A DNA stretch of 64,000 nt from Patescibacteria group bacterium (GCA_016861205.1 BOKX01000001.1:136539-200538), one strand, 5' to 3'; counted from the stretch's first letter, positions 15,065 to 47,366 are shown. Numbers and translations: made by a program. The notes: generated from the letters alone by a model not told the origin.

Positions 15065-15937
15065 ATGCAGTCAAACGTCTTGGTCAGTATTATCGGTGGT
15101 TTAGGTGGCATGTTTGGCTGGGGCGTATCAGATTTTTTGGCTAATTTAGCTGCTGATAAAGTTGGTCACAACAAGACGTTATTTTGGTCACAAGTGGCTG
15201 GGCTTGTGACATTAGGTCTGGGATTGTGGTTGGTGGCACCCACCCTGGCCCTGTCCCCTTTTTTGATTTCGCTCGTAGTTTTTTGCGGCTTAGCGTACAC
15301 GTTCGGCTACTTGTTTTTTTATCGAGGTTTTGAAGTTGGAAATGTGTCAGTAGTGTCGGCTGTGATCAACAGTCAGAACCTGTTTGTTGTTGCGATCGGT
15401 TTGCTCCGCGGTCAGACACTGTCGCCCTTCCAAGTGGTAGCATTAGTCTTACTGTTCTTGGGTGTTTTCTTGGTGTCTGTCAATCTACCCGAACTGATGT
15501 CGGGTAAAATTTCTTTAACTAAAGGAGTTAAAGAAACCATAATTGCCTCGGTTCTGTTTGGCGTCTTTTATTGGCCATTGAACGAGTTCATTGTTGAGCA
15601 AGCTAACTGGTTGCTGATCGCTGCTTTGACCAAGGTGGTGGCTCTAGCCACACTGAGCTTTGTGTCACTGTGGCAACGAAAATCATTGGCAGTAGCCAAG
15701 TCTACCCCGAAAATGATGGCGTTACTGATTGGCGTGGGAGTACTGGAAGCCGTTGGTGTCATGGGGGCAAACTTTGGTGTGGCGTATGGTGATGGTGTCA
15801 TCGTCGCCCCAATTGCGTCATCTTTGACGATTGTAACTGTTGGCTTAGCGATGATTTTTCTGAAAGAACGGATTTCTCGAGTGCAAGTGGTGGGGATTGG
15901 ATTGACCATTGTGGGCATTGTGCTGGCAGCGTTTTAG
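15065..15937 (+). CDS. DMT/EamA-family transporter.
   Basis: 290 aa, about 10 TM helices, with the two-repeat EamA-like architecture. Confidence 0.65.
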   Translation: MQSNVLVSIIGGLGGMFGWGVSDFLANLAADKVGHNKTLFWSQVAGLVTLGLGLWLVAPTLALSPFLISLVVFCGLAYTFGYLFFYRGFEVGNVSVVSAVINSQNLFVVAIGLLRGQTLSPFQVVALVLLFLGVFLVSVNLPELMSGKISLTKGVKETIIASVLFGVFYWPLNEFIVEQANWLLIAALTKVVALATLSFVSLWQRKSLAVAKSTPKMMALLIGVGVLEAVGVMGANFGVAYGDGVIVAPIASSLTIVTVGLAMIFLKERISRVQVVGIGLTIVGIVLAAF

Positions 15938-37991: not shown

Positions 37992-38131
37992 GGACTAAGT
38001 GTACACGCAAACAGTGAACTCTGATCAACCGTTTGGTGATTGCAAATCGGTACTGTGTTAACTATGGTACGCATATCGCAGGTTGTGTCATTTAAAATCT
38101 CTCACCCAGATATAGGCACTTTTCGTGAAAA

Positions 38132-38617
38132 ATGAGAAAACGCACTTGGACAGAAAACCAGCTCCGCACAGCAGCTAGTCAGGTTTTTAGCATCCGACAA
38201 CTCCTGACGAAGCTGGGCTTGCGTGAAGCAGGTGGTAATTACAAACAAATAAAACACTATTTGCAGTTGTACGGAATCGATACAGTACATTTTCGTGGTC
38301 GTGCATGGAACAAAGGTCTGACTGGCTGTGGTCAGCCCAGTGTTTCGCTCGAAAAAATACTAATTAAAGGTAGTCATTTTCAAAGTTTTAAGCTGAAGAA
38401 ACGTCTTTTCCAAGCGGGGCTAAAGTTACCAGTTTGTGAGTTATGTGGCTGGTCAGAAAAGGCAAAAGACGGTAGAATACCCGTTGAGCTGGACCACATC
38501 AATGGTCAGCCGACAGATAACCGACTTGAGAATTTGAGAGTTTTGTGCCCCAATTGCCATAGCCTGCAAGCTACACATCGGGGTAGGAACATTAAGAAAA
38601 AGTCGGCTCGGTGGTGA
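38132..38617 (+). CDS. HNH endonuclease.
   Basis: CELCGW...ELDHINGQPTDNRLENLRVLCPNCHS is an HNH motif with Zn-binding Cys pairs. Its 3' end overlaps the first 13 nt of tRNA-Leu(TAA). Confidence 0.8.
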   Translation: MRKRTWTENQLRTAASQVFSIRQLLTKLGLREAGGNYKQIKHYLQLYGIDTVHFRGRAWNKGLTGCGQPSVSLEKILIKGSHFQSFKLKKRLFQAGLKLPVCELCGWSEKAKDGRIPVELDHINGQPTDNRLENLRVLCPNCHSLQATHRGRNIKKKSARW

Positions 38618-38688: not shown

Positions 38689-38854
38689 CTACGAGGGAAA
38701 ATGGACATGTTTTTCGAGAGTTCACACTCCCACCAGGGACAGATCGATCCCCTGCCTCGTCGATCGCGATTCGAACCAACTGTTGAAGCCAAGAAACCAG
38801 AGCCGAGTATCGCCTGGTTTTTGTTGATGATGATTTTTGTAACTCCCATGATGT

Positions 38855-40024
38855 TTGAATTTATTGAGTCTCTTGGACCGGTTTTACAAAAATAAGCCTA
38901 TGGTTAATCCAGAAACCTCACCACCTGCCGGTACAGTACTGCGGGTGACCGATTTTTTGACGGGGTTAAGCCTGCTGCAAAGTATTCAAGATTCCAAGAC
39001 GAAGAATTGGTCAAAAGTACCAGTGCCAATTATCGATGGCAAAGTTGCGTTGCAGCCTGGCCAACATTATGAAGTTCGGGTTAAACCTGACATGCGCCTG
39101 GCCCAAACAGGATTGGAGCCATTGTTTTGTCATTTGTTGCACATAGTAGTTCATGATGAAGGTGCCGAGATTGAAGGTAAAGAGCAAGCGGTTCCACGCT
39201 GGCGAAAGTTAGCCACGAGTTTACTTTTCCATGTTAACGGTTACCCAACTGACAAGCAGAAAGTTTGGTTGGGCTTAGATCCGCAGCACAACCAGCAAGC
39301 TTTTGGGCACAGTTTTGAGTTGGAGTATCTGGGCCATCCTGAAACGAGCTTGCGGGCGTTGTTTGAACAGCCATTTAGTGAAGAAGTTTTCTCATTATTT
39401 TCACAACTTGAACTGCCAGGTCGACCGCTTCGCGTGACTCGAAAAACCAAGGAACAGACTATTGAAAGAGGCATCAAACGAACTGTTTTGGTTGCTACAC
39501 CACTATTACATCGGCGTCTGTACAGAGAGCGAGGCGTTGATTTGAGTGGTGGTCACTATCCCCGACGGCGTAGTCAGTTGCCGAACTTCTCGTATGAAGC
39601 CGAGGTGGTTTTGTTCGCAGAGTTGGAAACCACAGTCATCCGAAAAACGACAGCTAAAGACTGGTCAGAGCTGCGTCAGCCACGCGACGTAAGTTTAAAT
39701 GTGGTCGCCCGTGATGAGCAAGGTGTGGTGCGCGTGTATAAAGCGATTGGGCCAGAGTTCCTGCGAGAGCAGTACTATACGGTCGGCGATGATGGTTTGC
39801 CAAAGCTCAAAAGTCGTCCTCGGCCTGAATCGTTGAAAGATGTTCTAGCGGCGATGGCTGATTTGGTTTATCAAGCAGAGTGGCCGCCCATTGATGACTT
39901 AACCAAACAAATTAAAGCTCGGGAAAGTTACAGCCAACTAGTTGAAGACACCTATGCCCGCTTGGCAAAGCGCCTGAGAAGCAAAAAGCGCACGCACGAG
40001 CTCAAGGGGAAGAAACTCAAGTAG
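38855..40024 (+). CDS. Hypothetical protein, 389 aa, very basic C-terminus.
   Basis: Long ORF between tRNA-Leu and tRNA-Pro. No recognised motif. Confidence 0.5.
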   Translation: MNLLSLLDRFYKNKPMVNPETSPPAGTVLRVTDFLTGLSLLQSIQDSKTKNWSKVPVPIIDGKVALQPGQHYEVRVKPDMRLAQTGLEPLFCHLLHIVVHDEGAEIEGKEQAVPRWRKLATSLLFHVNGYPTDKQKVWLGLDPQHNQQAFGHSFELEYLGHPETSLRALFEQPFSEEVFSLFSQLELPGRPLRVTRKTKEQTIERGIKRTVLVATPLLHRRLYRERGVDLSGGHYPRRRSQLPNFSYEAEVVLFAELETTVIRKTTAKDWSELRQPRDVSLNVVARDEQGVVRVYKAIGPEFLREQYYTVGDDGLPKLKSRPRPESLKDVLAAMADLVYQAEWPPIDDLTKQIKARESYSQLVEDTYARLAKRLRSKKRTHELKGKKLK

Positions 40025-40074
40025 TTGCAGTTCAACCAGTCTGGTACAATATAGCCTGGTTTTCATAGCCACTT

Positions 40075-40151
40075 CGGGGAATAGCTCAGATGGCTAGAGC
40101 GCACGCTTTGGGAGCGTGAGGCCGCAGGTTCGAGTCCTGTTTCCCCGACCA
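40075..40151 (+). tRNA. tRNA-Pro (anticodon TGG), with encoded CCA.
   Basis: Acceptor CGGGGAA/TTCCCCG-A-CCA. Anticodon arm CACGC-TTTGGGA-GCGTG. T arm GCAGG-TTCGAGT-CCTGT. Confidence 0.9.
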
Positions 40152-41677
40152 TTTAAGACAAGAGGGTGTTTGAGTAGGGTGTCGAAGGGTTCTTTTAGCC
40201 TGTACAGCGTTACTTTTTCTTCATCAATCCATAAGTTCAAGAAAATAATTCGCACAATTTGGTCTTTAACTTCTGGTGTTCCCGCTTTAATGGATAATCC
40301 AGCGTTTTTCGACAAGTTCAAGAAGTCTTCCAGCGTCAGTACGTCTTGCTCTAAGTCAGGCATGGCTTCCTTGAGTTTGTTGATATCTTCTTCAAGTTGA
40401 GCTTTTTGCTTGTCCAGTTCTTTGACTCTTTCCTCACCAATCTGTCTTACGGTAGAACCTTGTTCTTGGCTTAAGACTTGCAGAGCAACGTTGCGTAACT
40501 CCGTTGTAGTAACTTTGAGTAGACCTTGTTTTGAATGTAGTTCTGCCTCGAGTTTGGTTTTCTGTTTGGTCAGCACGTCAGTCATTTCTTGCAGGTAAAT
40601 TTGGTAATCTTTTTCGGTAAAGTTGAGTCCATCTTTGAGGAATTCATACAACCAATCAAGCACGACTTTGACTCTGACAGACTTCTTGGCTCGCCTGCAT
40701 CCAGTGGTTTCACACCTGAAATTAAGGTATCGTTTCCCACTGCCACCAGTTGAGGGACCAACGGTCATATTGCTGTCACAGAAAGAACACAGGACAAATG
40801 CCTTGAAGGGATAAAAAGTGTAGCGGTGGGTGTTAATTGGCATGAGTCGTGTACCAGATTGTGCCTGAATCTGGAAAAACTCTGCCTCACTTACCGCAGG
40901 TGCAAAGTCATACTTGGTTCGCAAATCAATCTGGTCATCTGCCTGTACCAATACTCCATAGTAAAAGGAATCACGAAAGATAATACTCAAGATTCGCTTG
41001 TCCATGTCCACTTTGCGACCAGTTGATTTAATCACACGGTGGTAGCCAAGAGCGTTGATGGTGTCAGCAATCTTCTCTAGCGACTCACCTTTGAGCTTCA
41101 TCTGCCAGGCTTCTTTAATCAGTTCATGGTTCTTGCCGTCAGGTTGATATCTGCCGAACTCATCAATAGTGTAACCATGTTTGGGGATATGGCTTCTGCC
41201 TTCACTGGCTTTTCTGACCATGCCACGAGTCACATCAGCCGAGAGCTTGTCGGAGTATTGTTTGGAGAGGACAAAGGCAAGTCCGAGCATCATCAAGCCA
41301 TTGGCATCCCGAGTAAAGTGGTGGGTGACAAACTTTAAGTCCTTGATGATGTCCTCATCAATCATGTCAATGACCTCACCACCTTCCTTCATGTTGCGAG
41401 CTAATCGGTCAGGGTTCCAGCACAGTATTCCATCGTATTTACCAGCTTGAATATCTTTGAGCATCTGCCGAAAAACAGGTCTTTTACCAGGTTTCTTGGC
41501 AGACTTCTGTTCAGTCAGTGGAGAGCCAACAACAGTCAAATTGAGGCGTTTGGCAAGCTGGAGGCACTCGGCAATTTGGTCAGGAATAGACCGAGCTTGA
41601 CGCTCAGGGTCATCGGTGGATTTGCGAGCGTAGAGGACATATTTGAGCTTGGTGTGGTCAACTTCATACTCCATCAC
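40094..41677 (-). CDS. Large serine recombinase (phage-type integrase/resolvase family).
   Basis: N-terminal YARKSTDDPERQARSIPDQ is the catalytic Ser motif. There is a recombinase domain, a zinc ribbon CSFCDS...CETTGC, and a C-terminal coiled coil. The last 19 or so codons are antisense to tRNA-Pro. Confidence 0.85.
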   Translation of the reverse strand: MMEYEVDHTKLKYVLYARKSTDDPERQARSIPDQIAECLQLAKRLNLTVVGSPLTEQKSAKKPGKRPVFRQMLKDIQAGKYDGILCWNPDRLARNMKEGGEVIDMIDEDIIKDLKFVTHHFTRDANGLMMLGLAFVLSKQYSDKLSADVTRGMVRKASEGRSHIPKHGYTIDEFGRYQPDGKNHELIKEAWQMKLKGESLEKIADTINALGYHRVIKSTGRKVDMDKRILSIIFRDSFYYGVLVQADDQIDLRTKYDFAPAVSEAEFFQIQAQSGTRLMPINTHRYTFYPFKAFVLCSFCDSNMTVGPSTGGSGKRYLNFRCETTGCRRAKKSVRVKVVLDWLYEFLKDGLNFTEKDYQIYLQEMTDVLTKQKTKLEAELHSKQGLLKVTTTELRNVALQVLSQEQGSTVRQIGEERVKELDKQKAQLEEDINKLKEAMPDLEQDVLTLEDFLNLSKNAGLSIKAGTPEVKDQIVRIIFLNLWIDEEKVTLYRLKEPFDTLLKHPLVLNGRGNRTRTCGLTLPKRAL

Positions 41678-41889
41678 ACCAGATTATCCCACGAAAAAAC
41701 AAAAACAGGAGTACATACCACGCTTTTCCTGTACTCTAACCAGCCTCCCTTGACCCACTCTCTGCCACAGCAGGGGTGGCACAGTAACCACGAAAACCTA
41801 ACAAAACATAACACATTAAAGGAAGCCTATAACTACAAAAAAGAGTCGAGGGTGATGCCATCTGAGTCATACCGTTATATAATACCCAC

Positions 41890-42336
41890 ATGGGAATCAA
41901 TGAGCGAACTACAATCATCGATATCAGGTCTTCAAAATTTGAAGACATACTCACAATGTATCCTGCTGAATCCTTAAAGTTACTGTTTCGTGGTGTTAGA
42001 AATGATGACTCACCATCTGGTGGCAACTGGTGGTCTGAAGATGCCTATTATGCCTTGGGTTGTACTAATGACGACAGGCTTTATGTAACGGCAGTACCTG
42101 TGGGGTTAATCGCTGAACTTCAAGAAACCAACCAATTGACTAACGAGAGTGACCACGAAGGAAACAAATGGCAATTTAGAAGATTCAACTTACCTCACCG
42201 ACAGGTTAATGATGACGAGCTAACGCAATTACTTTCTCAAGCCCGCATAACTAAGTTAGGGGCAACCCGAGCCATAAAAACCAGATTCGGCACTCAAGCA
42301 AGAATTGATTTCTCAAGAGATGTTATATTGAAATGA
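41890..42336 (+). CDS. Hypothetical protein in the low-GC island. It has a weak RES/ART-toxin-like motif (FRGVRNDDSPSGGNWW...YYALG...LIAELQE).
   Basis: 148 aa, AT-rich codon usage unlike its neighbours. The motif resemblance is weak. Confidence 0.45.
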   Translation: MGINERTTIIDIRSSKFEDILTMYPAESLKLLFRGVRNDDSPSGGNWWSEDAYYALGCTNDDRLYVTAVPVGLIAELQETNQLTNESDHEGNKWQFRRFNLPHRQVNDDELTQLLSQARITKLGATRAIKTRFGTQARIDFSRDVILK

Positions 42337-42345
42337 ACTTTGTAT

Positions 42346-42615
42346 TTACTTCTTAGTGAGTTCAAACACCTTCTTCTTGATATTACTGAAAAAGGCAAAG
42401 ATTGGGTTTTTCTTGATGAGAGTATAAAGAATCTCACGTCCCTGACTGTCCCGCATTGCTATTGCATTTCTGACACCATCCTCACCGAGCTTCTGTTGCT
42501 CGTCTATAGCTTTGAGTGCCATCATGATATCAGCACGATTGGCATGAGGTCGTTTGAGTTGTTCTGTCAGTAGTCGCTTATTGAGTGCTAGGTCTTCTTC
42601 AAAGGAAAGTGCCAT
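42346..42615 (-). CDS. Hypothetical protein, 89 aa.
   Basis: ORF in the low-GC segment. Confidence 0.4.
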   Translation of the reverse strand: MALSFEEDLALNKRLLTEQLKRPHANRADIMMALKAIDEQQKLGEDGVRNAIAMRDSQGREILYTLIKKNPIFAFFSNIKKKVFELTKK

Positions 42616-42653
42616 AATTTGACCGCTATTGTATCTTTTTTACCCGAGAAAGC

Positions 42654-42914
42654 CTAGTACATGTACACTAGTCCCATCTTGTTTTCACCACGAGTGGAGT
42701 AATCATCAGAGATGTCTGATTGCGTAACAACCTGAAATGGCTTCCAGCATGATAAAATCACTTCTGTCAGGCGTTCAAAGTCTGTCGCCTTCACTCGACA
42801 CAAACCTTCCAGTCCCCACATCTTTACACCCACGCCGCGAGGAGTAAAATCGCACTCAACCCATGTCAGATGCGTGGGATAGAGAGGTGGTTCATGCCAC
42901 GAGTTGAGGTTCAT
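42654..42914 (-). CDS. Hypothetical protein, 86 aa.
   Basis: ORF only. Confidence 0.35.
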   Translation of the reverse strand: MNLNSWHEPPLYPTHLTWVECDFTPRGVGVKMWGLEGLCRVKATDFERLTEVILSCWKPFQVVTQSDISDDYSTRGENKMGLVYMY

Positions 42915-43592
42915 TCATTTCAAGTTGTTAGCAAGGTACCTGACGAATCGCGTCCCCTGAAGGGAGATGGTTTTTCTGTAGGCAGCAATTGTGAGCTGTA
43001 CGACAGTCCAGAGACAGCACTTAGGTGCGCCAGAGAGTATCAACAAAAAACGCAGCGGGATAATGCAGTGGCTATCACTGTGATCACTGAGCTGGCGACA
43101 CTATCTGACGCTGAGGTGGCGCAGTTGCCCACTGGCTTGGCTTGGGGTAGCGCCATTGATACGCAAACAATTCAATTGGTCGAAGTGGGTCGAACTACTT
43201 TTCAACTGGATGCCAGTCCTCAAACTGTTCAAAGTAGCGAGGAAAATTCAGAATCAGCTAAGATGTTACCAGAAGGCGACTGGAATAGCTCTGAAGTTTT
43301 TCCCACGCTTGAAGAAGCATCATTTTTTGAGTTCCCACGAATAATTGGTAGTGTCGCTACCTTGTATATAGTGGAAACTTTAGTCCGATATGGTTTTACT
43401 CCCGAGCCAGGCAAGATTAAGGCAGCCTATGTCTTTATTTCTGATGATGAAAAGACCAACGTCTATTTAGTCTATTTATTAGGTACTACAGCGTACAGCT
43501 GGTCCGATGTTAATCCAAAGGACTCGGATTACCAAACCATCCTTGAAAAAGAGCGCCAGATTGTGTCACCGGTAATTGGTTTTTATCGTTAA
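42870..43592 (+). CDS. Hypothetical protein, 240 aa.
   Basis: ORF only. It is convergent with the next gene, with a 4-nt overlap. Confidence 0.45.
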   Translation: MRGIERWFMPRVEVHSFQVVSKVPDESRPLKGDGFSVGSNCELYDSPETALRCAREYQQKTQRDNAVAITVITELATLSDAEVAQLPTGLAWGSAIDTQTIQLVEVGRTTFQLDASPQTVQSSEENSESAKMLPEGDWNSSEVFPTLEEASFFEFPRIIGSVATLYIVETLVRYGFTPEPGKIKAAYVFISDDEKTNVYLVYLLGTTAYSWSDVNPKDSDYQTILEKERQIVSPVIGFYR

Positions 43593-44311
43593 GACAAATG
43601 ACTGGTGATGTTCATTGCCAGTGACGAGATAAATGGGATCAGATCGGTCAATTTGGCTCGGTTGTGCTGGTATAGACTGCCCTCCGACCAGTCATCATAG
43701 ATTTCAACGTTATCTAAGTCAGTGATGACCAACCGGTAGCTGCCGTCTGTAGCCAGCACAAAAAAAGTGCTGTCACCTTTAATTCTAATGTGGGCTGAGG
43801 AAATTTCACGCGCGATCAACTCCACTCGCTGCTTAAAGTCCTCCTGCCAAGTTTCGTCAATGATGTCAAAGGTATCACGTACATTTTGGGCGAAGTCAGG
43901 GTCTCTTTGAGTAAGTTGCTGAGTTTGCCTAAGGATATCTTCGCGGAGGTCATTAGTTGACATGACTAGTTTGGTGCCGCCTTCGGTGAGATCGGTCATC
44001 AACAGCCCGCGCTCAGTGTAGCGCAGTGTGGGGACGGTGTACTCGCGTCCATGGGGCAAGCTCATCAGCCGTTGGTGAACAGCCATGGCGTCTTGGATGT
44101 GCTGGGTAGGCTGAGAGTGGGAGTCAAAAGTTTTGTAGGCCAAGTAAAGAGGCGCTTTGTTTTCACCTCGCGATAGTTTAAATCTCCTGACAGAACCCAT
44201 GTGTCCGCCACCGAGTTCAGCGCCTTTTTCCAGAACCAGCTGTAAGGCTTTGGCATCGCCGTCCCCATTTCGAATGGCTTCAACAACTTCGGTCGGTAAG
44301 TTCTCTGGCAT
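43589..44311 (-). CDS. Small protein-kinase-like protein (atypical kinase fold candidate).
   Basis: GGGHMGSV glycine-rich loop (GxGxxGxV). LYLAYK (AxK). VITDLDNV (DLxxN catalytic-loop-like). 240 aa. Confidence 0.45.
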   Translation of the reverse strand: MPENLPTEVVEAIRNGDGDAKALQLVLEKGAELGGGHMGSVRRFKLSRGENKAPLYLAYKTFDSHSQPTQHIQDAMAVHQRLMSLPHGREYTVPTLRYTERGLLMTDLTEGGTKLVMSTNDLREDILRQTQQLTQRDPDFAQNVRDTFDIIDETWQEDFKQRVELIAREISSAHIRIKGDSTFFVLATDGSYRLVITDLDNVEIYDDWSEGSLYQHNRAKLTDLIPFISSLAMNITSHLS

Positions 44312-44420
44312 AGGTTGAGTGTAAACCGCCCTAGGGCAGTTGTCACGTCAGTAACAGGTAAGTTTTTTGGACAGTGATTGACGGCTACCAAAACAGGAAT
44401 AGAATCGGTTTCAATACTAG

Positions 44421-44915
44421 GTGTACATACAGAAAGCATCTATGGTATCTCCTGAATTTGGTATTGAGGACACAGCTCCTGAAAGCCCGGTCTCTTCTAC
44501 GCAGTTACTTTCTTTGATCGCAACAGAGGTGGTCACCGAGGCGGAGGCCCAGGACCACGATGAAGAACCTCTCTTTGATCGAGGTGAAGAATGGCCATCT
44601 TTTGATGAAACACCCTTGTTTGTAATTCCCCGGTGGATAGATGCTTTTCTGACTGTAGGTGCTATCGTGTCATACCTCAATCGGGCCTTTAATTTCAGAG
44701 CAGCCAGCGGAGTTAACAAGGCCGCATTCCTGATTTTCGAAAGTAACGATGGGCCACAACTGAGACACATTACTTTATGTGGTTCTCAGAATATTATGTA
44801 CCACATTCTTGCGCCCAGTGACCCAACTTGGAAGGAAGTCTTAAAGAAAGAACAACAGCTACCTGATCAACAAGCGACTTCTGGTTCTGAAGCCGGGTTA
44901 GAATATCAAACGTAA
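44421..44915 (+). CDS. Hypothetical acidic protein, 164 aa.
   Basis: ORF only. Confidence 0.4.
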   Translation: MYIQKASMVSPEFGIEDTAPESPVSSTQLLSLIATEVVTEAEAQDHDEEPLFDRGEEWPSFDETPLFVIPRWIDAFLTVGAIVSYLNRAFNFRAASGVNKAAFLIFESNDGPQLRHITLCGSQNIMYHILAPSDPTWKEVLKKEQQLPDQQATSGSEAGLEYQT

Positions 44916-44930
44916 GACGTTTTAGACGTC

Positions 44931-45824
44931 TCAAAGTGACTGCAAAACTATCAGCTGTTTCCCGTCGCCTTCAATTTGTGAGTCTCGGTTACTGTCTGTG
45001 TCGAGCAGAAGCCATGGAGCGTGTTGCTCAGCAAACTGAGTGAAGCCGGGATACTTTCGATCAAACAAGAGTTTGCGAACTGGAATATTCAAAATTTGCG
45101 CGGTCAAAAGCTCTAAAGTACAACCGAGTGACGCGGCAAAATCAGGAAACATCACCATCCCAGCCAACGGGTTCACTTGGCACTGGTAATCTGCCAGAAA
45201 GTCTCGATACAGCTGGCTTAAGTGCAAGTAAACTTGGAGTCGTTCTTCTCGAGATTGGGCGAAGTTACTAAAGCAAGCACCGTCAAAAGCGTTGTCAGCT
45301 AAGTAGCTTAGGAACGTTTGGGCATCGCTAGGTTTGAGGCCACCATTATAGAGCAGCCAAAACAAGTTAAAGTGAATTTCATCAAAAGTCGGTCGAGGTG
45401 CAATGCGCGGTGGCAAGGTCACTTCTGGCGCACCGAAGACGGGAAAAGTGTGCGCGACTACCGCATCAGCATACTGGGCATTGGTCCGGATGCTTTGCAT
45501 GGCCAAGTCATGAGGGCTGAGGTCTGGTTGCTGTTGGCGAACATACTCGCGTGCGCCGCCGCCTGTCATGGGCAGACTGAGATAGACAGTTGAGCGAGGG
45601 TTTTCGCCAAAGCCTGTAAAGGTGCGAGTGTAGACGTCGAGCAAAGTTTCACCTGGTTCTGTCGTCGGAAATACCGTCACAATGGGGTGTTCTGGTGCTG
45701 TCATGCCAGGCATTGTACGCAGGTCACAAGGGGATGTACAGCCACAGCTGCTGTAGGATGAGCTAGTAAGTGCGAGTTTCGATTCGCCTTTCCTTCGTGC
45801 TAGCATGGGGCATGTACCAAACAA
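44931..45824 (-). CDS. Hypothetical protein, about 260-297 aa.
   Basis: ORF only. Start uncertain. Confidence 0.45.
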   Translation of the reverse strand: MFGTCPMLARRKGESKLALTSSSYSSCGCTSPCDLRTMPGMTAPEHPIVTVFPTTEPGETLLDVYTRTFTGFGENPRSTVYLSLPMTGGGAREYVRQQQPDLSPHDLAMQSIRTNAQYADAVVAHTFPVFGAPEVTLPPRIAPRPTFDEIHFNLFWLLYNGGLKPSDAQTFLSYLADNAFDGACFSNFAQSREERLQVYLHLSQLYRDFLADYQCQVNPLAGMVMFPDFAASLGCTLELLTAQILNIPVRKLLFDRKYPGFTQFAEQHAPWLLLDTDSNRDSQIEGDGKQLIVLQSL

Positions 45825-46057
45825 TTAGCGAAGGTATCGCGGTGCTCGGTAGCTACCGAGCGGGTCACTTTAAACCACTCCGATTTGCGTGGCGGCAGCG
45901 GACCTACCACATCGAAGAGATTACCTTGGTCAGCGAGAGTCGCAATGGTGGTGTGCGAGGTCGCACCTACAGTGTGTTAGTGAAAGGTACGGTGTATCGA
46001 CTGTTTTTTAACCGAGATACTGAGGAGTGGCGACTGGAGGAGGTGTGGTGTGAGTAG
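45812..46057 (+). CDS. Small protein (about 81 aa) translationally coupled to the downstream Y-family polymerase. It may be a polymerase accessory factor of the YolD/UmuD-functional-analogue type.
   Basis: Its stop TAG overlaps the GTG start of the polymerase ORF (GTGAGTAG). Start taken at MYQTISEG. Confidence 0.4.
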   Translation: MYQTISEGIAVLGSYRAGHFKPLRFAWRQRTYHIEEITLVSESRNGGVRGRTYSVLVKGTVYRLFFNRDTEEWRLEEVWCE

Positions 46058-47366
46058 CTTTGTGACTCGGCCAGTTTCCGCTCAATCATCGCCGAGCGCT
46101 CCAGCCTCTACTGAGCGCCCCATGCGCTGGGCGCACGTTGACATCAACTCGTACTTTGCCACCTTGCTGCAACAAGAAAATCCAGCTCTGCGCGGTAAAC
46201 CAGTGGGCGTGGTCAAAGATGTTGGTCGGACTTGTGTCATTGCTGCTTCGAAGGAAGCTAAAAAGCTGGGAATTCCCACGGGGTGTGGCTTGCGGGAGGC
46301 CCGCCAGAAAGCCCCCAACTTAATAGTCGTACCCGCGGCTTTTGACATGTACTTGTCGGCCACTCGACGGTTGTGTCAGATTTTTGCCAACTTATCGCCC
46401 GAGGTTCATGTTTTTTCGCTCGATGAGGCATTTATCAATCTAACTGGTTGCGAACGCCTCTACCCCACTGGTCAAGTTTTTGGGGAACTTGTGCAACAGC
46501 AAATCAAGGCTGAGCTGGGTGAGTGGGTGACGTGTAACGTGGGGTTGAGTCACACCCGGCTGCTAGCCAAGATGGCTGGTGAAATGGCCCCCAAGGGGAG
46601 CATTGTGGAGATCACTGAAGACAACAAAATCGAGTGGCTGGCGCGAGCGACTTTTGATCAGGTATGTGGGGTGGGTTTTCGGTTGGCGGCCAAACTGGAG
46701 CGCATTGGAGTAACACATCCTTGGCAGATTAACTTTGTGCCCGATGCAGACTTGGAAAAGTTGGTGGGACCATTTTGGGCGAGTGAACTGCGCAAAATTG
46801 GCCAGGGTGAAGAAACCCACTTTTTTACCCATCCGCCCAGTAAACCATATATGCAGTCGGTGGGTCGGTCACTAACTGGCTATCGGCTGTGTGATGATGA
46901 GCGGGTCATCCAGCGGGTGATGTACAACTTAATCATGGAAGTGATGCACAAAGTGCGCAAACTCAACTTGGCTGGTTATCGAGTCAGCTTGGGCTTGCGA
47001 GGTGGTCGAAGTGGCGATCCGCAGTATTGGTATCAAGAGCTACGCGTTGGTGAACCTATCAGGCGAGCTGAAGTTATGTTCGACCTGCTTTATCACCGCT
47101 TGTATCGATCTTGGCGGCGAACGTTCCCGATCATCAAGATCAGCGTTAGACTCAGCGACCTACACCCCTGGGAGACAACGCAGCCAGTGTTGTGGCCAGA
47201 ATGGCACCAGCGGGAGCGAGTGGCCACGGCGCTGGATAAGCTAACTGCTCGGTACGGTTTGTTTACTGTTCGGCCAGGTACATTATTAACGAAGCACCTG
47301 ATTCAGCCAGAAGTCACAGGCTATTTAGGTGATAAAAATTACCAGCTTGATAGCCGGTGGCAGTAA
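46050..47366 (+). CDS. Y-family (DinB/UmuC-type) translesion DNA polymerase.
   Basis: MRWAHVDINSYFATL holds the first catalytic Asp. FSLDEAFINLT gives the D/E pair. GVGFRLAAKL is HhH. Little-finger region. A GTG start at 46050, or an ATG at 46122. Confidence 0.8.
   Translation: MSSFVTRPVSAQSSPSAPASTERPMRWAHVDINSYFATLLQQENPALRGKPVGVVKDVGRTCVIAASKEAKKLGIPTGCGLREARQKAPNLIVVPAAFDMYLSATRRLCQIFANLSPEVHVFSLDEAFINLTGCERLYPTGQVFGELVQQQIKAELGEWVTCNVGLSHTRLLAKMAGEMAPKGSIVEITEDNKIEWLARATFDQVCGVGFRLAAKLERIGVTHPWQINFVPDADLEKLVGPFWASELRKIGQGEETHFFTHPPSKPYMQSVGRSLTGYRLCDDERVIQRVMYNLIMEVMHKVRKLNLAGYRVSLGLRGGRSGDPQYWYQELRVGEPIRRAEVMFDLLYHRLYRSWRRTFPIIKISVRLSDLHPWETTQPVLWPEWHQRERVATALDKLTARYGLFTVRPGTLLTKHLIQPEVTGYLGDKNYQLDSRWQ

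What the first reader, a model, noticed from the sequence alone, without database searches (positions are those of the whole stretch)
40075..45824. tRNA-Pro-anchored integrative island: large serine recombinase plus low-GC cargo of entirely unknown genes
A 527-aa large serine recombinase gene ends inside tRNA-Pro on the opposite strand. Downstream lie seven ORFs with no recognisable function. They are on mixed strands and tightly packed, and they include a marked low-GC stretch (41.7-42.7 kb). This is the signature of a horizontally acquired island. Such islands next to integrases frequently carry anti-phage defence or toxin systems. The ORFs at 42870..43592, 43589..44311 and 44931..45824 are the best candidates for an undescribed system. 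I could not locate the right-hand att repeat by eye.
Basis: partly seen in the sequence, partly recalled or inferred. Interest (0 to 1): 0.7.

Follow-up and report, generated by a model that had tools for sequence, protein, structure and literature searches.

The report
Self-splitting serine-integrase mini-element at tRNA-Pro
The "island" is really a 2.65-kb mobile element inserted after a proline tRNA gene. Its integrase gene spans the element's own joining site, so insertion cuts off the enzyme's last 47 codons. This layout was previously described only for archaeal tyrosine integrases. The other unknown genes are ordinary neighbours, not cargo.

Summary
**Observation.** It is real. A large serine recombinase (LSR) gene at 40094-41674 (-) runs 58 nt into tRNA-Pro(tgg) at 40075-40151. 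The ORFs downstream match no known family. GC is lowest at 42.0-42.75 kb. There is no tRNA direct repeat.

**Interpretation.** It is only partly right.
- The mobile unit is 40150-42799 (2,650 bp). It holds the LSR, one cargo gene (o148), a conserved 89-aa gene (o89) and a 47-codon "exon" (42654-42797).
- Both ends carry the same 4-nt core, CGAC.
- A sister strain with 98%-identical flanks lacks this unit but keeps the ORFs at 42894-45713. Those ORFs are therefore not its cargo.

**Main result.** Joining the two ends at the core puts the LSR in frame with the 47-codon exon, giving a 556-aa protein.
- The frame holds in 29 of 29 related elements for which both ends are available, plus the window.
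- The fused ORF occurs naturally in tandem arrays.
- The core co-varies with the target: GTCG for tRNA-Pro and GTGC for tRNA-Leu.
- The TTGAAC motif sits 5 bp further from the core on the exon arm than on the tRNA arm. This offset is the attP/attB hallmark of LSRs.

So attP lies inside the recombinase gene, and integration swaps the enzyme's C-terminus. The family is widespread in Patescibacteria (over 1,200 proteins). Whether the swap has a function is untested.

The parts
40075..40151 (+). tRNA-Pro(tgg), the integration target. Its T-arm and acceptor 3' strand (about 40117-40149) form the attB-type (B) half-site of attL.
   Evidence: The tRNA is called by ARAGORN and by Rfam at 67 bits. It is identical in the element-free strain L002. 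The family consensus of the B arm is GTCGGGGtga.agGAcTtGAACc.
40146..40149 (.). Left common core CGAC (C71-G72-A73-C74 of the tRNA). It contains the presumed crossover dinucleotide of attL.
   Evidence: The same 4 nt are present at both ends in 29 of 29 tRNA-Pro elements that have both ends available. Window and L002 homology ends at 40152.
40094..41674 (-). Large serine recombinase, integrated isoform (526 aa). Residues 1-509 are element-encoded, and R509 is the CGG codon that spans the core. The last 17 residues (GNRTRTCGLTLPKRAL) and the stop codon come from the antisense strand of tRNA-Pro.
   Evidence: Domain and fold evidence is. No family member examined has its own stop codon before the core. 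dN/dS of the body is 0.05-0.13.
41890..42336 (+). o148, the single variable cargo gene of this copy. Its function is unknown. It lies in the lowest-GC stretch.
   Evidence: It is 85% identical in L003. It is replaced by unrelated genes of 124-216 aa in L010, L011, L012, L013 and L019. It has no Pfam, PADLOC or PHROG hit.
42346..42615 (-). o89, a conserved small helical protein immediately downstream of the C-terminal exon. It would be co-transcribed with the full-length LSR in the circular form. It is a candidate accessory or directionality factor (inference only).
   Evidence: It is present in all 7 close elements at 55-90% identity, with dN/dS 0.09-0.36. It has no family hit.
42654..42797 (-). 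Detached C-terminal exon of the LSR (47 codons plus stop, RVKATDFERL...GLVYMY*). It is the conserved part of the mechanical 86-aa ORF 42654..42914, which is a junction chimera.
   Evidence: It has 47 codons with no indel or stop in 7 copies, and dN/dS is about 0.3-0.5. It is in frame with the LSR when the ends are joined at the core. It is contiguous with the LSR in P0142, P0050, P0119, L038, L106 and L110.
42770..42799 (-). attP-type (P) half-site plus the right common core (CGAC at 42796-42799): GTCGAGTGAAGGCGACAGACTTTGAACGCC.
   Evidence: It is nearly invariant in 7 elements whose LSR genes have dS of 0.5 to over 2. It occurs once in the window. TTGAAC sits at 22-27 from the core, against 17-22 in the tRNA arm.
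40150..42799 (.). The whole integrated element: 2,650 bp, with ends ambiguous within the 4-nt core.
   Evidence: The window and L003 share 40073-42802 at 85% nucleotide identity with unrelated flanks. L002 has a different 1,380 bp between 40152 and 42796.
42894..45713 (.). Outside the element: resident, strain-variable neighbours. They are o232 (42894-43592 +), o240 (43589-44311 -, possibly kinase-like), o157 (44442-44915 +, an indel relative to L002) and o260 (44931-45713 -).
   Evidence: They are kept in L002, which has no LSR. o240 homologues in other contexts are shown. A Foldseek kinase lead for o240 is weak.

Best explanation
Window 40150-42799 is a minimal integrative element of a Patescibacteria-wide family. 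It is inserted by a large serine recombinase at the very 3' end of tRNA-Pro, with the crossover inside CGAC (G72-A73-C74).

The element's attP site lies inside the 3' end of the recombinase gene.
- **Circular form.** The LSR is a 556-aa protein. Its last 47 residues are encoded across the joint, and o89 follows in the same transcription unit.
- **Integrated form.** The gene is split at the crossover. The LSR keeps all catalytic and DNA-binding domains (residues 1-509). It now ends in a short peptide read from the antisense strand of the tRNA. The 47-codon exon and o89 are stranded 2.6 kb away at the other end, without a conserved start codon.

What is shown:
- the element boundaries;
- the shared core;
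- the universal in-frame relation;
- natural fused ORFs;
- the attP-type and attB-type half-site geometry.

What is inferred:
- recombination actually proceeds this way;
- the C-terminal swap and the uncoupling of o89 give the element a built-in record of its state (episomal or integrated) that biases direction or expression.

The element carries one small swappable cargo gene of unknown function. The remaining ORFs of the finding are chromosomal neighbours in a strain-variable region.
For: 1. **Presence or absence.** Sister strain L002 has flanks 94-98% identical but lacks 40153-42795.
2. **The same unit elsewhere.** It lies next to tRNA-Pro in other genomes with unrelated flanks. These are L003, L010, L011, L012, L013 and L019, with LSR identity of 72-91% and anticodons tgg, ggg and cgg.
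3. **In-frame join.** Joining the ends at the core gives an in-frame 556-aa ORF in all six elements tested first, 571 aa in L013. All 29 tRNA-Pro elements with both ends on the contig, plus the window, begin the exon at GT|CG in the LSR frame. The exon is always upstream on the same strand, 2.6-9.5 kb away.
4. **Junctions across the family.** Of 55 tRNA-Pro junctions, 52 have GTCG in the LSR codon frame. Of the 120 closest database homologues, nearly all end in '(S/G)RG' followed by tRNA-antisense residues.
5. **Natural fused ORFs.** P0142 sits in a tandem array (L015), where the core lies inside the ORF at 11520. The array ends at tRNA-Pro(cgg) and begins with a free exon at 7116. L085 and L038 are similar.
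6. **Core covariation.** tRNA-Leu-targeting relatives (L062, L069) have GTGC at the exon junction.
7. **Half-site geometry.** The P arm is nearly invariant. Its TTGAAC motif is 5 bp further from the core than in the tRNA arm. Rutherford et al. 2013 describe this offset for LSR attP and attB sites (PMC3783163).
8. **Reconstructed attB sites.** In most loci tRNA-Pro is followed directly by a terminator hairpin or by the next tRNA.
9. **Recombinase family.** The protein is a bona fide LSR.
Against: - **No direct observation.** No circular form, attP junction or simple empty attB of this particular copy was seen. No short contig showed terminal overlap.
- **The window site is not a clean insertion.** L002 carries a terminator, a NUDIX gene and a MOSC gene (1,380 bp) where the window has the element. 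A secondary deletion or replacement must therefore be assumed.
- **Weak evidence for the 47-aa tail as a protein.** AF2 gives no confident fold for it (pLDDT 25-47). Its dN/dS is only 0.3-0.5. Its most conserved residues, (F/L/I)E(R/L)L, are the translation of the TTGAAC DNA motif, so part of the apparent protein conservation may be att-site conservation.
- **Arms that do not fit the textbook.** The P' arm is variable and the B' flank shows no conservation. This is unusual for LSR sites.
- **Tandem arrays.** They imply attP x attL or attP x attR events, which canonical LSRs avoid.
- **Non-independence.** The 29 elements are homologous, so the in-frame relation is one conserved trait, not 29 independent events.
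Confidence: 0.78

Rival explanations
1. A roughly 5.7-kb tRNA-Pro island (40075-45824) has the recombinase at one end, and all seven unknown ORFs are its cargo, possibly an undescribed defence or toxin system.
For: GC is low across 38-45 kb. All the ORFs lack known families. The region between tRNA-Pro and dinB varies between relatives: o157 is an indel, and o232 is replaced by a lycopene-cyclase-domain gene in L006.
Against: L002 keeps o232, o240 and o260 at 98-99.6% amino-acid identity without the LSR. The second copy of the element (L003) shares nothing beyond 42802. The conserved P arm and C-terminal exon mark the element's end at 42799. There are no PADLOC hits. o240 relatives occur in unrelated contexts, and also as tandem paralogues.
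Confidence: 0.05
2. The 47-codon ORF is an independent small gene, for example a regulator or antitoxin paired with o89. Its frame match with the LSR would then be an accident of att-site conservation. The true LSR would be the roughly 510-526-aa protein, and attP would simply abut two genes.
For: A TTG or ATG lies two codons upstream of the core in the window and in L003. The tail has no confident fold. dN/dS is moderate and dS is depressed. The conserved residues coincide with the TTGAAC DNA motif. Most database proteins are of the short form.
Against: There is no conserved start codon or ribosome-binding context across elements. No LSR has its own stop codon before the core. The 7-residue linker between LLK and the junction Arg has constant length across the family despite sequence divergence. 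Unsplit 552-558-aa proteins carry a homologous tail, including some in non-tandem contexts such as L016-L018, L106 and L110. The tail is conserved beyond the 25-30 bp arm, in IL..W and the terminal Y.Y.
Confidence: 0.15
3. The window copy is an immobilised relic. The element entered at tRNA-Pro, and a later deletion removed its original right flank along with the terminator, NUDIX and MOSC genes. It can therefore no longer excise precisely and is now vertically inherited.
For: The right flank lacks the terminator or next tRNA seen at other copies. NUDIX and MOSC are absent from the whole 64-kb window. L002 and L006 show MOSC as the ancestral neighbour.
Against: The LSR, the P arm, the exon and o89 are all intact. 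The B' flank shows no sequence requirement across the family, so loss of the original flank need not block recombination. This rival is compatible with the main explanation for the family and concerns only the present-day activity of this copy.
Confidence: 0.35

Closest known systems
Phage and ICE large serine recombinases (serine integrases: Bxb1, phiC31, A118/LI, TP901-1)
   Same: The domain order is the same: catalytic NTD, recombinase domain, and zinc ribbon with an inserted coiled coil. Foldseek gives E = 5e-22 to full-length integrase-att complexes. The crossover core is short rather than a long direct repeat. The distal DNA motif is shifted 5 bp between the attP-type and attB-type half-sites (PMC3783163).
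   Different: Here attP lies inside the recombinase ORF, so integration exchanges the last 47 residues. In the studied systems attP lies outside the gene, as far as I know; Durrant et al. 2022 (PMC10083194) mention no such case and no tRNA targets. Only the tRNA half of attB is conserved. The elements are 2.6-9.5 kb with one to a few cargo genes and no phage or conjugation genes. Nothing above 32% identity was found in IMG/VR viral contigs.
SSV-type (type I, 'suicidal') tyrosine integrases of archaeal viruses and plasmids
   Same: attP lies within the integrase ORF. The target is a tRNA gene. The integrase gene is partitioned to the two ends of the integrated element. [quoted passage not shown]
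   Different: Those are tyrosine recombinases, stated to be 'so far restricted to archaea' (PMC7253208). Their split yields two inactive pseudogenes. Here the enzyme is a bacterial serine recombinase and the cut falls after all known domains. The large fragment stays under strong purifying selection (dN/dS about 0.06). Tandem arrays that rebuild the full gene are observed here (L015, L085), whereas that paper reports not seeing them.
Tycheposons of Prochlorococcus (small tRNA-targeting cargo elements)
   Same: Both are small site-specific elements at tRNA genes in streamlined genomes. Both have swappable cargo and tandem junctions, and both sit next to strain-variable island DNA that is not itself part of the element (bioRxiv 10.1101/2020.12.28.424599).
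   Different: Tycheposons mostly use tyrosine recombinases (910 of 937) and often carry replication genes. The text searched does not describe a split recombinase gene.

Membership tests
Large serine recombinase (serine integrase) | N-terminal resolvase-type catalytic domain with the conserved Arg/Ser motif | tested here: met
   PF00239 scores 7.7e-24, 84.9 bits against a cut-off of 23.3. Y15, R17, K18 and S19 are invariant in 121 sequences.
Large serine recombinase (serine integrase) | Recombinase domain followed by a zinc ribbon with an inserted coiled coil | tested here: met
   PF07508 scores 29.2 bits, above its cut-off of 21.1. PF13408 scores only 17.9 bits, below its cut-off of 25.3, but C296, C299, C321 and C326 are invariant. 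AF2 places long helices at 354-401 and 408-437 between zinc-ribbon strands at pLDDT about 90. Foldseek matches 9y66, 9dxd, Bxb1 and phiC31 at 5e-22 to 1e-13.
Large serine recombinase (serine integrase) | attP and attB half-sites share a proximal motif, and the distal (ZD) motif is about 5 bp closer to the centre in attB | tested here: met
   In the consensus of 29 elements, GA is at 14-15 in both arms. TTGAAC is at 22-27 in the P arm and 17-22 in the tRNA arm. The rule is taken from PMC3783163. This holds for the P and B arms only. P' and B' do not show it.
Large serine recombinase (serine integrase) | Catalyses attP x attB recombination at a 2-bp crossover | not testable with these tools
   This is inferred only from the shared 4-nt core at both ends.
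SSV-type 'suicidal' integrase | attP located inside the integrase ORF, and the gene partitioned on integration into a tRNA gene | tested here: met
   The exon is in frame across the core in 29 of 29 elements plus the window. Fused ORFs occur in tandem arrays and in unsplit relatives. This is comparative evidence, not an observation of the reaction.
SSV-type 'suicidal' integrase | Tyrosine recombinase fold; archaeal host | tested here: not met
   The enzyme is a serine recombinase. The host is Patescibacteria-like.
SSV-type 'suicidal' integrase | Both fragments become inactive pseudogenes after integration | tested here: not met
   The large fragment keeps all domains. It is intact in 52 of 55 junctions and has dN/dS of 0.05-0.13. 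Activity itself was not testable.
Classical tRNA-anchored genomic island (tyrosine-integrase type) | The displaced 3' tRNA fragment (15-45 nt) forms a direct repeat at the far end | tested here: not met
   No repeat was found in 39.9-50.5 kb or anywhere in the window with up to 3 mismatches. Such a 16-nt repeat does exist in the sister strain L002, 155 nt after its tRNA-Pro, marking a different event.
Known anti-phage defence systems (PADLOC-DB 2.0) | At least one component matching a defence-system model | tested here: not met
   None of the ORFs between 41890 and 46057 matched at E <= 0.1, apart from noise-level hits: GajA at 0.068 on the chimeric 86-aa ORF, and coiled-coil hits of the LSR to LmuB and JetC.
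Protein-kinase-like fold (for o240, 43589-44311) | Gly-rich loop, catalytic Lys and a bilobal kinase fold | tested here: inconclusive
   LGxGxxGSV, AxK, GD and DLDN are conserved in 5 homologues. The AF2 model is poor, with mean pLDDT 51.5. All of the top 50 Foldseek hits are protein kinases, but at E >= 6.5e-3 and TM about 0.3. Pfam and PDB sequence searches found nothing.

The most novel reading that the evidence does not exclude
This would be a widespread bacterial (Patescibacteria) family of minimal integrative elements in which attP lies inside a large-serine-recombinase gene. The element would then exist in two genetically encoded states.
- **Episomal state.** A 556-aa integrase is made and o89 is co-expressed with it.
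- **Integrated state.** The integrase is truncated and tagged with a tRNA-antisense peptide, o89 is uncoupled from it, and tRNA read-through runs antisense to the recombinase gene.

This state switch, rather than a classical directionality factor, would set the direction of recombination. If so, it is the first serine-recombinase counterpart of the archaeal 'suicidal' integrases. Unlike them, the integrated enzyme would stay functional.
Probability: 0.35. Interest if true: 0.8.

Novelty: new variant of a known kind. Interest (0 to 1): 0.66.

Why it matters
- **Correcting the annotation.** The unknown genes at 42.9-45.7 kb should not be treated as integrase cargo or as defence candidates on the strength of their neighbourhood.
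- **The architecture.** A self-splitting recombinase gene has, to my knowledge and in the literature I could search, been described only for archaeal tyrosine integrases. Finding it in a serine integrase would show that it evolved convergently in two unrelated recombinase superfamilies. It would also offer a natural way for one LSR gene to yield two isoforms depending on integration state. That bears on the open question of how serine integrases control direction.
- **Practical uses.** The family gives compact elements of 2.6 kb or more, each with a single swappable cargo slot and a universal, well-defined target (the 3' end of tRNA-Pro). They occur in Patescibacteria, a phylum with almost no genetic tools. 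Gene callers also truncate these recombinases systematically, giving tails that are translated tRNA.

Tried and rejected
- **Direct repeat of the tRNA 3' end.** None was found.
- **Family searches for every cargo and neighbour ORF.** Pfam, NCBIfam, PADLOC and PHROGs gave nothing usable. The only hint was a weak match of o260 to phrog_355, nucleoside 2-deoxyribosyltransferase (2.9e-4, a 30-residue stretch), which I do not trust.
- **phmmer of the 49-aa exon against 1.84 billion representatives.** It gave one true hit (P0152). The other three were TPR/CHAT-type noise.
- **AF2 of the rebuilt 556-aa LSR.** The body is good, but the tail is unmodelled at pLDDT 25-47, so the tail has no structural assignment.
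- **AF2 of o240.** Mean pLDDT was 51.5, so the Foldseek kinase hits are a lead only.
- **PDB sequence searches for o240, o260 and o232.** Nothing was found.
- **IMG/VR scan with the family alignment.** Only LSRs of 32% identity or less were found, so there is no evidence that the family is phage-borne.
- **Terminal-overlap test for circular contigs.** It was negative on 15 short contigs.
- **o49-o89 as a toxin-antitoxin pair.** I considered this because a second copy exists in L003. I rejected it once that copy proved to be the end of a second, inverted LSR element (L012).
- **The element carrying its own tRNA-Pro.** I rejected this because the acceptor-stem 5' and 3' strands co-vary with the host. 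The window's tRNA is also identical to that of the element-free strain.
- **The motif CGACA.A.A.C at the right junction of the window, L002 and L003.** I could not decide whether it is target preference or chance.

Full report
**1. What is in the window**

ARAGORN and Rfam both find tRNA-Pro(tgg) at 40075-40151 (+). An ORF at 40094..41677 (-) is 527 aa from GTG, or 526 aa from the ATG at 41674. It has Pfam Resolvase (7.7e-24) and Recombinase (29.2 bits, cut-off 21.1) domains, and a sub-threshold zinc-ribbon match. It hits PHROG 'integrase' at 9.7e-63.

An AlphaFold2 model built on 121 sequences is confident over residues 1-504, at about 90 pLDDT. It matches full-length serine integrase-att complexes at E = 5e-22. 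The protein is therefore a genuine large serine recombinase (LSR).

Its stop codon is the TAG in the D-loop of the tRNA, so 58 nt of the gene are antisense tRNA. The ORFs between 41.7 and 45.8 kb have no significant Pfam, NCBIfam, PADLOC or PHROG match. GC is lowest, at 0.41-0.42, between 42.0 and 42.75 kb. No direct repeat of the tRNA 3' end exists.

**2. Host**

The identical sequence occurs on a 1,149,156-bp NCBI contig and in a Logan assembly. Named relatives of the window's RarA (65-70% identity) are 'Patescibacteria group bacterium' and 'Candidatus Pacebacteria'. A named LSR relative is 'Candidatus Microgenomates'. The host is most likely a patescibacterium (CPR). The title 'uncultured Pseudomonadales' on the related MAGs looks like a labelling artefact.

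**3. True extent of the mobile unit**

- **Sister strain L002 (SRR27901410).**
  - It matches the window at 94-98% nucleotide identity up to 40152 and again from 42796.
  - In between it has 1,380 bp carrying a terminator, a NUDIX gene and a MOSC gene, and no recombinase.
  - It keeps the 232-, 240- and 260-aa genes at 98-99.6% amino-acid identity.
- **A different genome (L003, GCA_964635905.1).**
  - It shares window 40073-42802 at 85% nucleotide identity: LSR 91%, o148 85%, o89 90%.
  - Its flanks are completely unrelated.
- **More distant relatives (L004, L006).** They have a homologue of the 240-aa protein next to tRNA-Pro(tgg) with no LSR.

The mobile unit is therefore about 40150-42799 (2,650 bp).

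**4. A conserved architecture**

A scan of GTDB genomes found five close LSR relatives (72-91% identity). A Logan look-up found one more. Every one has the same layout:

- tRNA-Pro on the opposite strand overlapping the LSR 3' end;
- then one gene that differs from element to element (124-216 aa, on either strand, with no mutual similarity except between the window and L003);
- then o89;
- then a 47-codon ORF.

The anticodon is tgg, ggg or cgg, so the elements use all three isoacceptors. One genome carries two copies (L003 and L012).

**5. The ends and the split gene**

Both ends carry the same four bases.

- In tRNA orientation the left junction is ...CCC**CGAC**|CAT..., at 40146-40149. These are C71-G72, the discriminator A73 and C74.
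- The right junction is ...CACT**CGAC**|ACA..., at 42796-42799.

No LSR in the family has a stop codon before the core. The 47-codon ORF has no conserved start codon: TTG in the window, ATG in L003 and none elsewhere. It is open into whatever flank it abuts.

When the two ends are joined at the core, as in a circular element, the LSR reads ...LVLNG-R-VKATDFERL...GLVYMY*. This is a 556-aa protein, and all six elements tested were in frame.

I then fetched 80 relatives at 46-74% identity from metagenomes. On these I ran ARAGORN, tblastn and an HMM of the tail.

| Measure | Result |
|---|---|
| Loci with the LSR 3' end present | 84 |
| A tRNA overlaps the 3' end antisense | 58 |
| ...of which tRNA-Pro | 55 (32 tgg, 12 ggg, 11 cgg) |
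| ...of which tRNA-Leu | 3 |
| tRNA-Pro junctions with GTCG in the LSR codon frame | 52 of 55 |
| tRNA-Pro loci where the upstream exon was found (always same strand, 2.6-9.5 kb away) | 29 |
| ...of which begin GT\|CG at the first codon | 29 of 29 |

In the two tRNA-Leu elements with an exon, the junction is GTGC, the antisense of the tRNA-Leu ...GCAC end. The core therefore co-varies with the target.

Of the 120 closest database proteins, nearly all end '(S/G)RG' followed by 3-30 residues of translated tRNA antisense (for example RTRTxxLxxPxRAL). The stop comes from the T-loop or the D-loop. Annotated C-termini of this family are therefore largely artefacts of the insertion site.

**6. Natural full-length proteins**

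Three of the 120 proteins (P0050, P0119, P0142; 552-558 aa) carry a homologous tail contiguous with the LSR, as do several metagenome loci.

P0142 sits in a tandem array (L015):

- a free exon with its core at 7116;
- element 1;
- an LSR of 554 aa with the core inside the ORF at 11520;
- element 2;
- an LSR of 510 aa with its core at 15106, which is tRNA-Pro(cgg).

The joint between the two elements is the predicted attP, and it reconstitutes the full gene. L085 and L038 look similar.

Others (L016-L018, L106/107, L110/111) are unsplit in larger contexts with no nearby tRNA. These include a roughly 17-kb-plus element with relaxase-like, ATPase and methyltransferase genes.

**7. Are the ends LSR att sites?**

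The arm on the exon side (GTCGAGTGAAGGCGACAGACTTTGAACGCC) is almost invariant among seven elements whose LSR genes differ at dS of 0.5 to over 2. This indicates constraint at the DNA level.

Consensus arms across 29 elements:

| Arm | Consensus | TTGAAC position from the core |
|---|---|---|
| Exon arm (P type) | GTCGaG..gaaGCGAcaaA.cTTGAACt | 22-27 |
| tRNA arm (B type) | GTCGGGGtga.agGAcTtGAACc | 17-22 |

A proximal GA sits at the same position in both arms. The distal TTGAAC is the antisense of the T-loop, and it lies exactly 5 bp further out in the exon arm. [quoted passage not shown] The exon arm is thus P-type and the tRNA arm B-type, as the model requires.

The other two arms fit less well. 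P' lies within the LSR coding sequence for LLK plus a 7-residue linker, and it varies between subgroups. The linker length is nevertheless constant family-wide. The chromosomal B' flank shows no conservation at all.

Reconstructed attB sites place a terminator hairpin or the next tRNA directly after tRNA-Pro in most loci, consistent with simple insertion.

**8. Is the tail a real peptide?**

It has 47 codons with no indel or stop in seven copies. dN/dS is about 0.3-0.5, against 0.05-0.13 for the LSR body and 0.09-0.36 for o89.

Conservation extends beyond the roughly 25-bp arm, to IL..W and the terminal Y.Y. However, the motif (F/L/I)E(R/L)L is simply TTGAAC translated, and AF2 gives no confident structure.

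In the L015/L038 subgroup the stop of the tail overlaps the start of the next small gene (TATGAATACTAA). This suggests translational coupling of the LSR tail and the o89 analogue in the joined state.

I conclude that the tail is translated as part of the LSR in the circular or tandem state. Its function is open.

**9. Mechanism proposed**

Shown:
- the element limits;
- the common core;
- the in-frame design;
- the fused ORFs;
- the P-type and B-type geometry.

Inferred:
- The LSR recombines attP, which lies within its own 3' end, with the 3' end of tRNA-Pro at A73-C74.
- Integration leaves the tRNA body intact. In the window's subgroup the element even restores the encoded CCA (CGAC|CA).
- Integration replaces the last 47 residues of the LSR by a tRNA-antisense peptide, and it separates o89 from the LSR promoter.

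More speculative (about 0.35): this state-dependent change sets direction or expression. tRNA read-through antisense to the LSR may add to it.

The elements lack replication or transfer genes. Spread by natural transformation, or by hitch-hiking on larger elements, is possible but untested.

**10. The window copy is not a textbook insertion**

Relative to L002 and L006, the terminator, NUDIX and MOSC genes are missing, from the whole 64-kb window as well. A deletion or replacement must have accompanied or followed integration. The copy may or may not still be mobile.

**11. Comparison with known systems**

- **Family membership.** The element is a member of the LSR family (all testable features met).
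- **Resemblance in mechanism.** It works like the archaeal SSV-type 'suicidal' tyrosine integrases. Those have attP in the ORF, a tRNA target and a partitioned gene, and they are said to be 'so far restricted to archaea' (PMC7253208).
- **Why it is not a member of that group.**
  - It belongs to a different recombinase superfamily.
  - Its host is bacterial.
  - The large fragment is not a pseudogene.
- **Literature.** Full-text searches found no description of an LSR with an internal attP, or of this Patescibacteria family. The library is incomplete, so this is not proof of novelty.

**12. The neighbouring genes**

- o240 has kinase-like motifs. A poor model of it hits only protein kinases, weakly.
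- o157 is an indel relative to L002 and a distant paralogue of the C-terminus of o232.
- o260 has one untrustworthy PHROG hit.
- Nothing supports a defence system.

These genes form a strain-variable stretch between tRNA-Pro and dinB, and their function is unknown.

**Verdict**

- The defence-island idea is not supported.
- The recombinase belongs to a widespread family of tRNA-Pro-targeting mini-elements with a self-splitting LSR gene, apparently undescribed.
- I rate it a new variant of a known kind, with interest 0.66.

Noticed in passing
window 38005-38602 (ORF 38132-38617 +): A free-standing HNH endonuclease gene (phrog_10822, 1.2e-41; weak Pfam HNH_3) lies directly upstream of tRNA-Leu(taa), its 3' end overlapping the tRNA start. 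It sits in a roughly 600-bp segment that the sister strain L002 lacks, which looks like a homing-endonuclease insertion.
   Followed up: partly
window 44331-44930 (o157, 44442-44915 +): This is a second roughly 600-bp indel relative to L002. It carries a 157-aa ORF that has a 47% homologue beside the o240 homologue in L006 and 26% similarity to the C-terminal part of o232. o240 is thus flanked by two distant paralogues.
   Followed up: partly
L002 about 7130-7295 (tRNA orientation: 155 nt after tRNA-Pro): The element-free sister strain has a perfect 16-nt direct repeat of the tRNA-Pro 3' end (GTCCTGTTTCCCCGAC) 155 nt downstream of the tRNA. The repeat brackets a terminator-containing insert. 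This is the scar of a different, tyrosine-integrase-style event at the same tRNA.
   Followed up: no
window 38689-40075 (o62 38707-38895, o374 38900-40024): tRNA-Leu(taa) and tRNA-Pro(tgg) are 0-20 nt apart in many relatives (L003, L037, L046, L057-L059, L073, L100). In the window, L002 and L006 they are 1.4 kb apart, separated by two ORFs with no known family. This may be another insertion between the two tRNAs.
   Followed up: no
L003/L012 (GCA_964635905.1, contig CAZWPK010000004.1, about 95.9-110.0 kb): Two LSR elements in inverted orientation, at tRNA-Pro(tgg) and tRNA-Pro(ggg), bracket 8.6 kb of housekeeping genes (PGM, nucleotidyl-transferase, SIS, MPI, holA-like). Recombination between their ends would invert that segment.
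   Followed up: no
L062, L067, L069; L066, L084, L087: Some family members have switched target. Three sit at tRNA-Leu (gag or tag), and the two of these whose exon is available (L062, L069) have junction core GTGC. Another group has core GTGG and LSR tails of the SG(G)DGG type, with no tRNA detected by ARAGORN, so its target is unidentified.
   Followed up: partly
window 43589-44311 (-); L005 50-757 and 1089-1790: The 240-aa protein has conserved kinase-like motifs (LGxGxxGSV, AxK, GD, DLDN). It occurs as two tandem paralogues in L005. The family has only four 90%-identity clusters in 5.8 billion proteins.
   Followed up: partly
window 45812-46057 (+) and 46122-47366 (+): An 81-aa ORF with a weak DUF6504 match (E = 0.028) overlaps the mechanical (GTG) start of a DNA polymerase IV-like gene and lies about 60 nt upstream of its called start. 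The pair is conserved in L002. It may be a small accessory gene paired with a translesion polymerase.
   Followed up: no
L015 11655-11665; L038 about 3200-3217: In one subgroup the stop of the LSR tail overlaps the start of the next small acidic gene (TATGAATACTAA = ...YEY* / MNT...). The overlap implies translational coupling, which can operate only when the LSR gene is intact.
   Followed up: no
record titles of L009-L013: The MAGs carrying the closest elements are titled 'uncultured Pseudomonadales bacterium'. Their gene content, contigs of about 1 Mb and named protein relatives all point to Patescibacteria, so the taxonomy label is probably wrong.
   Followed up: partly
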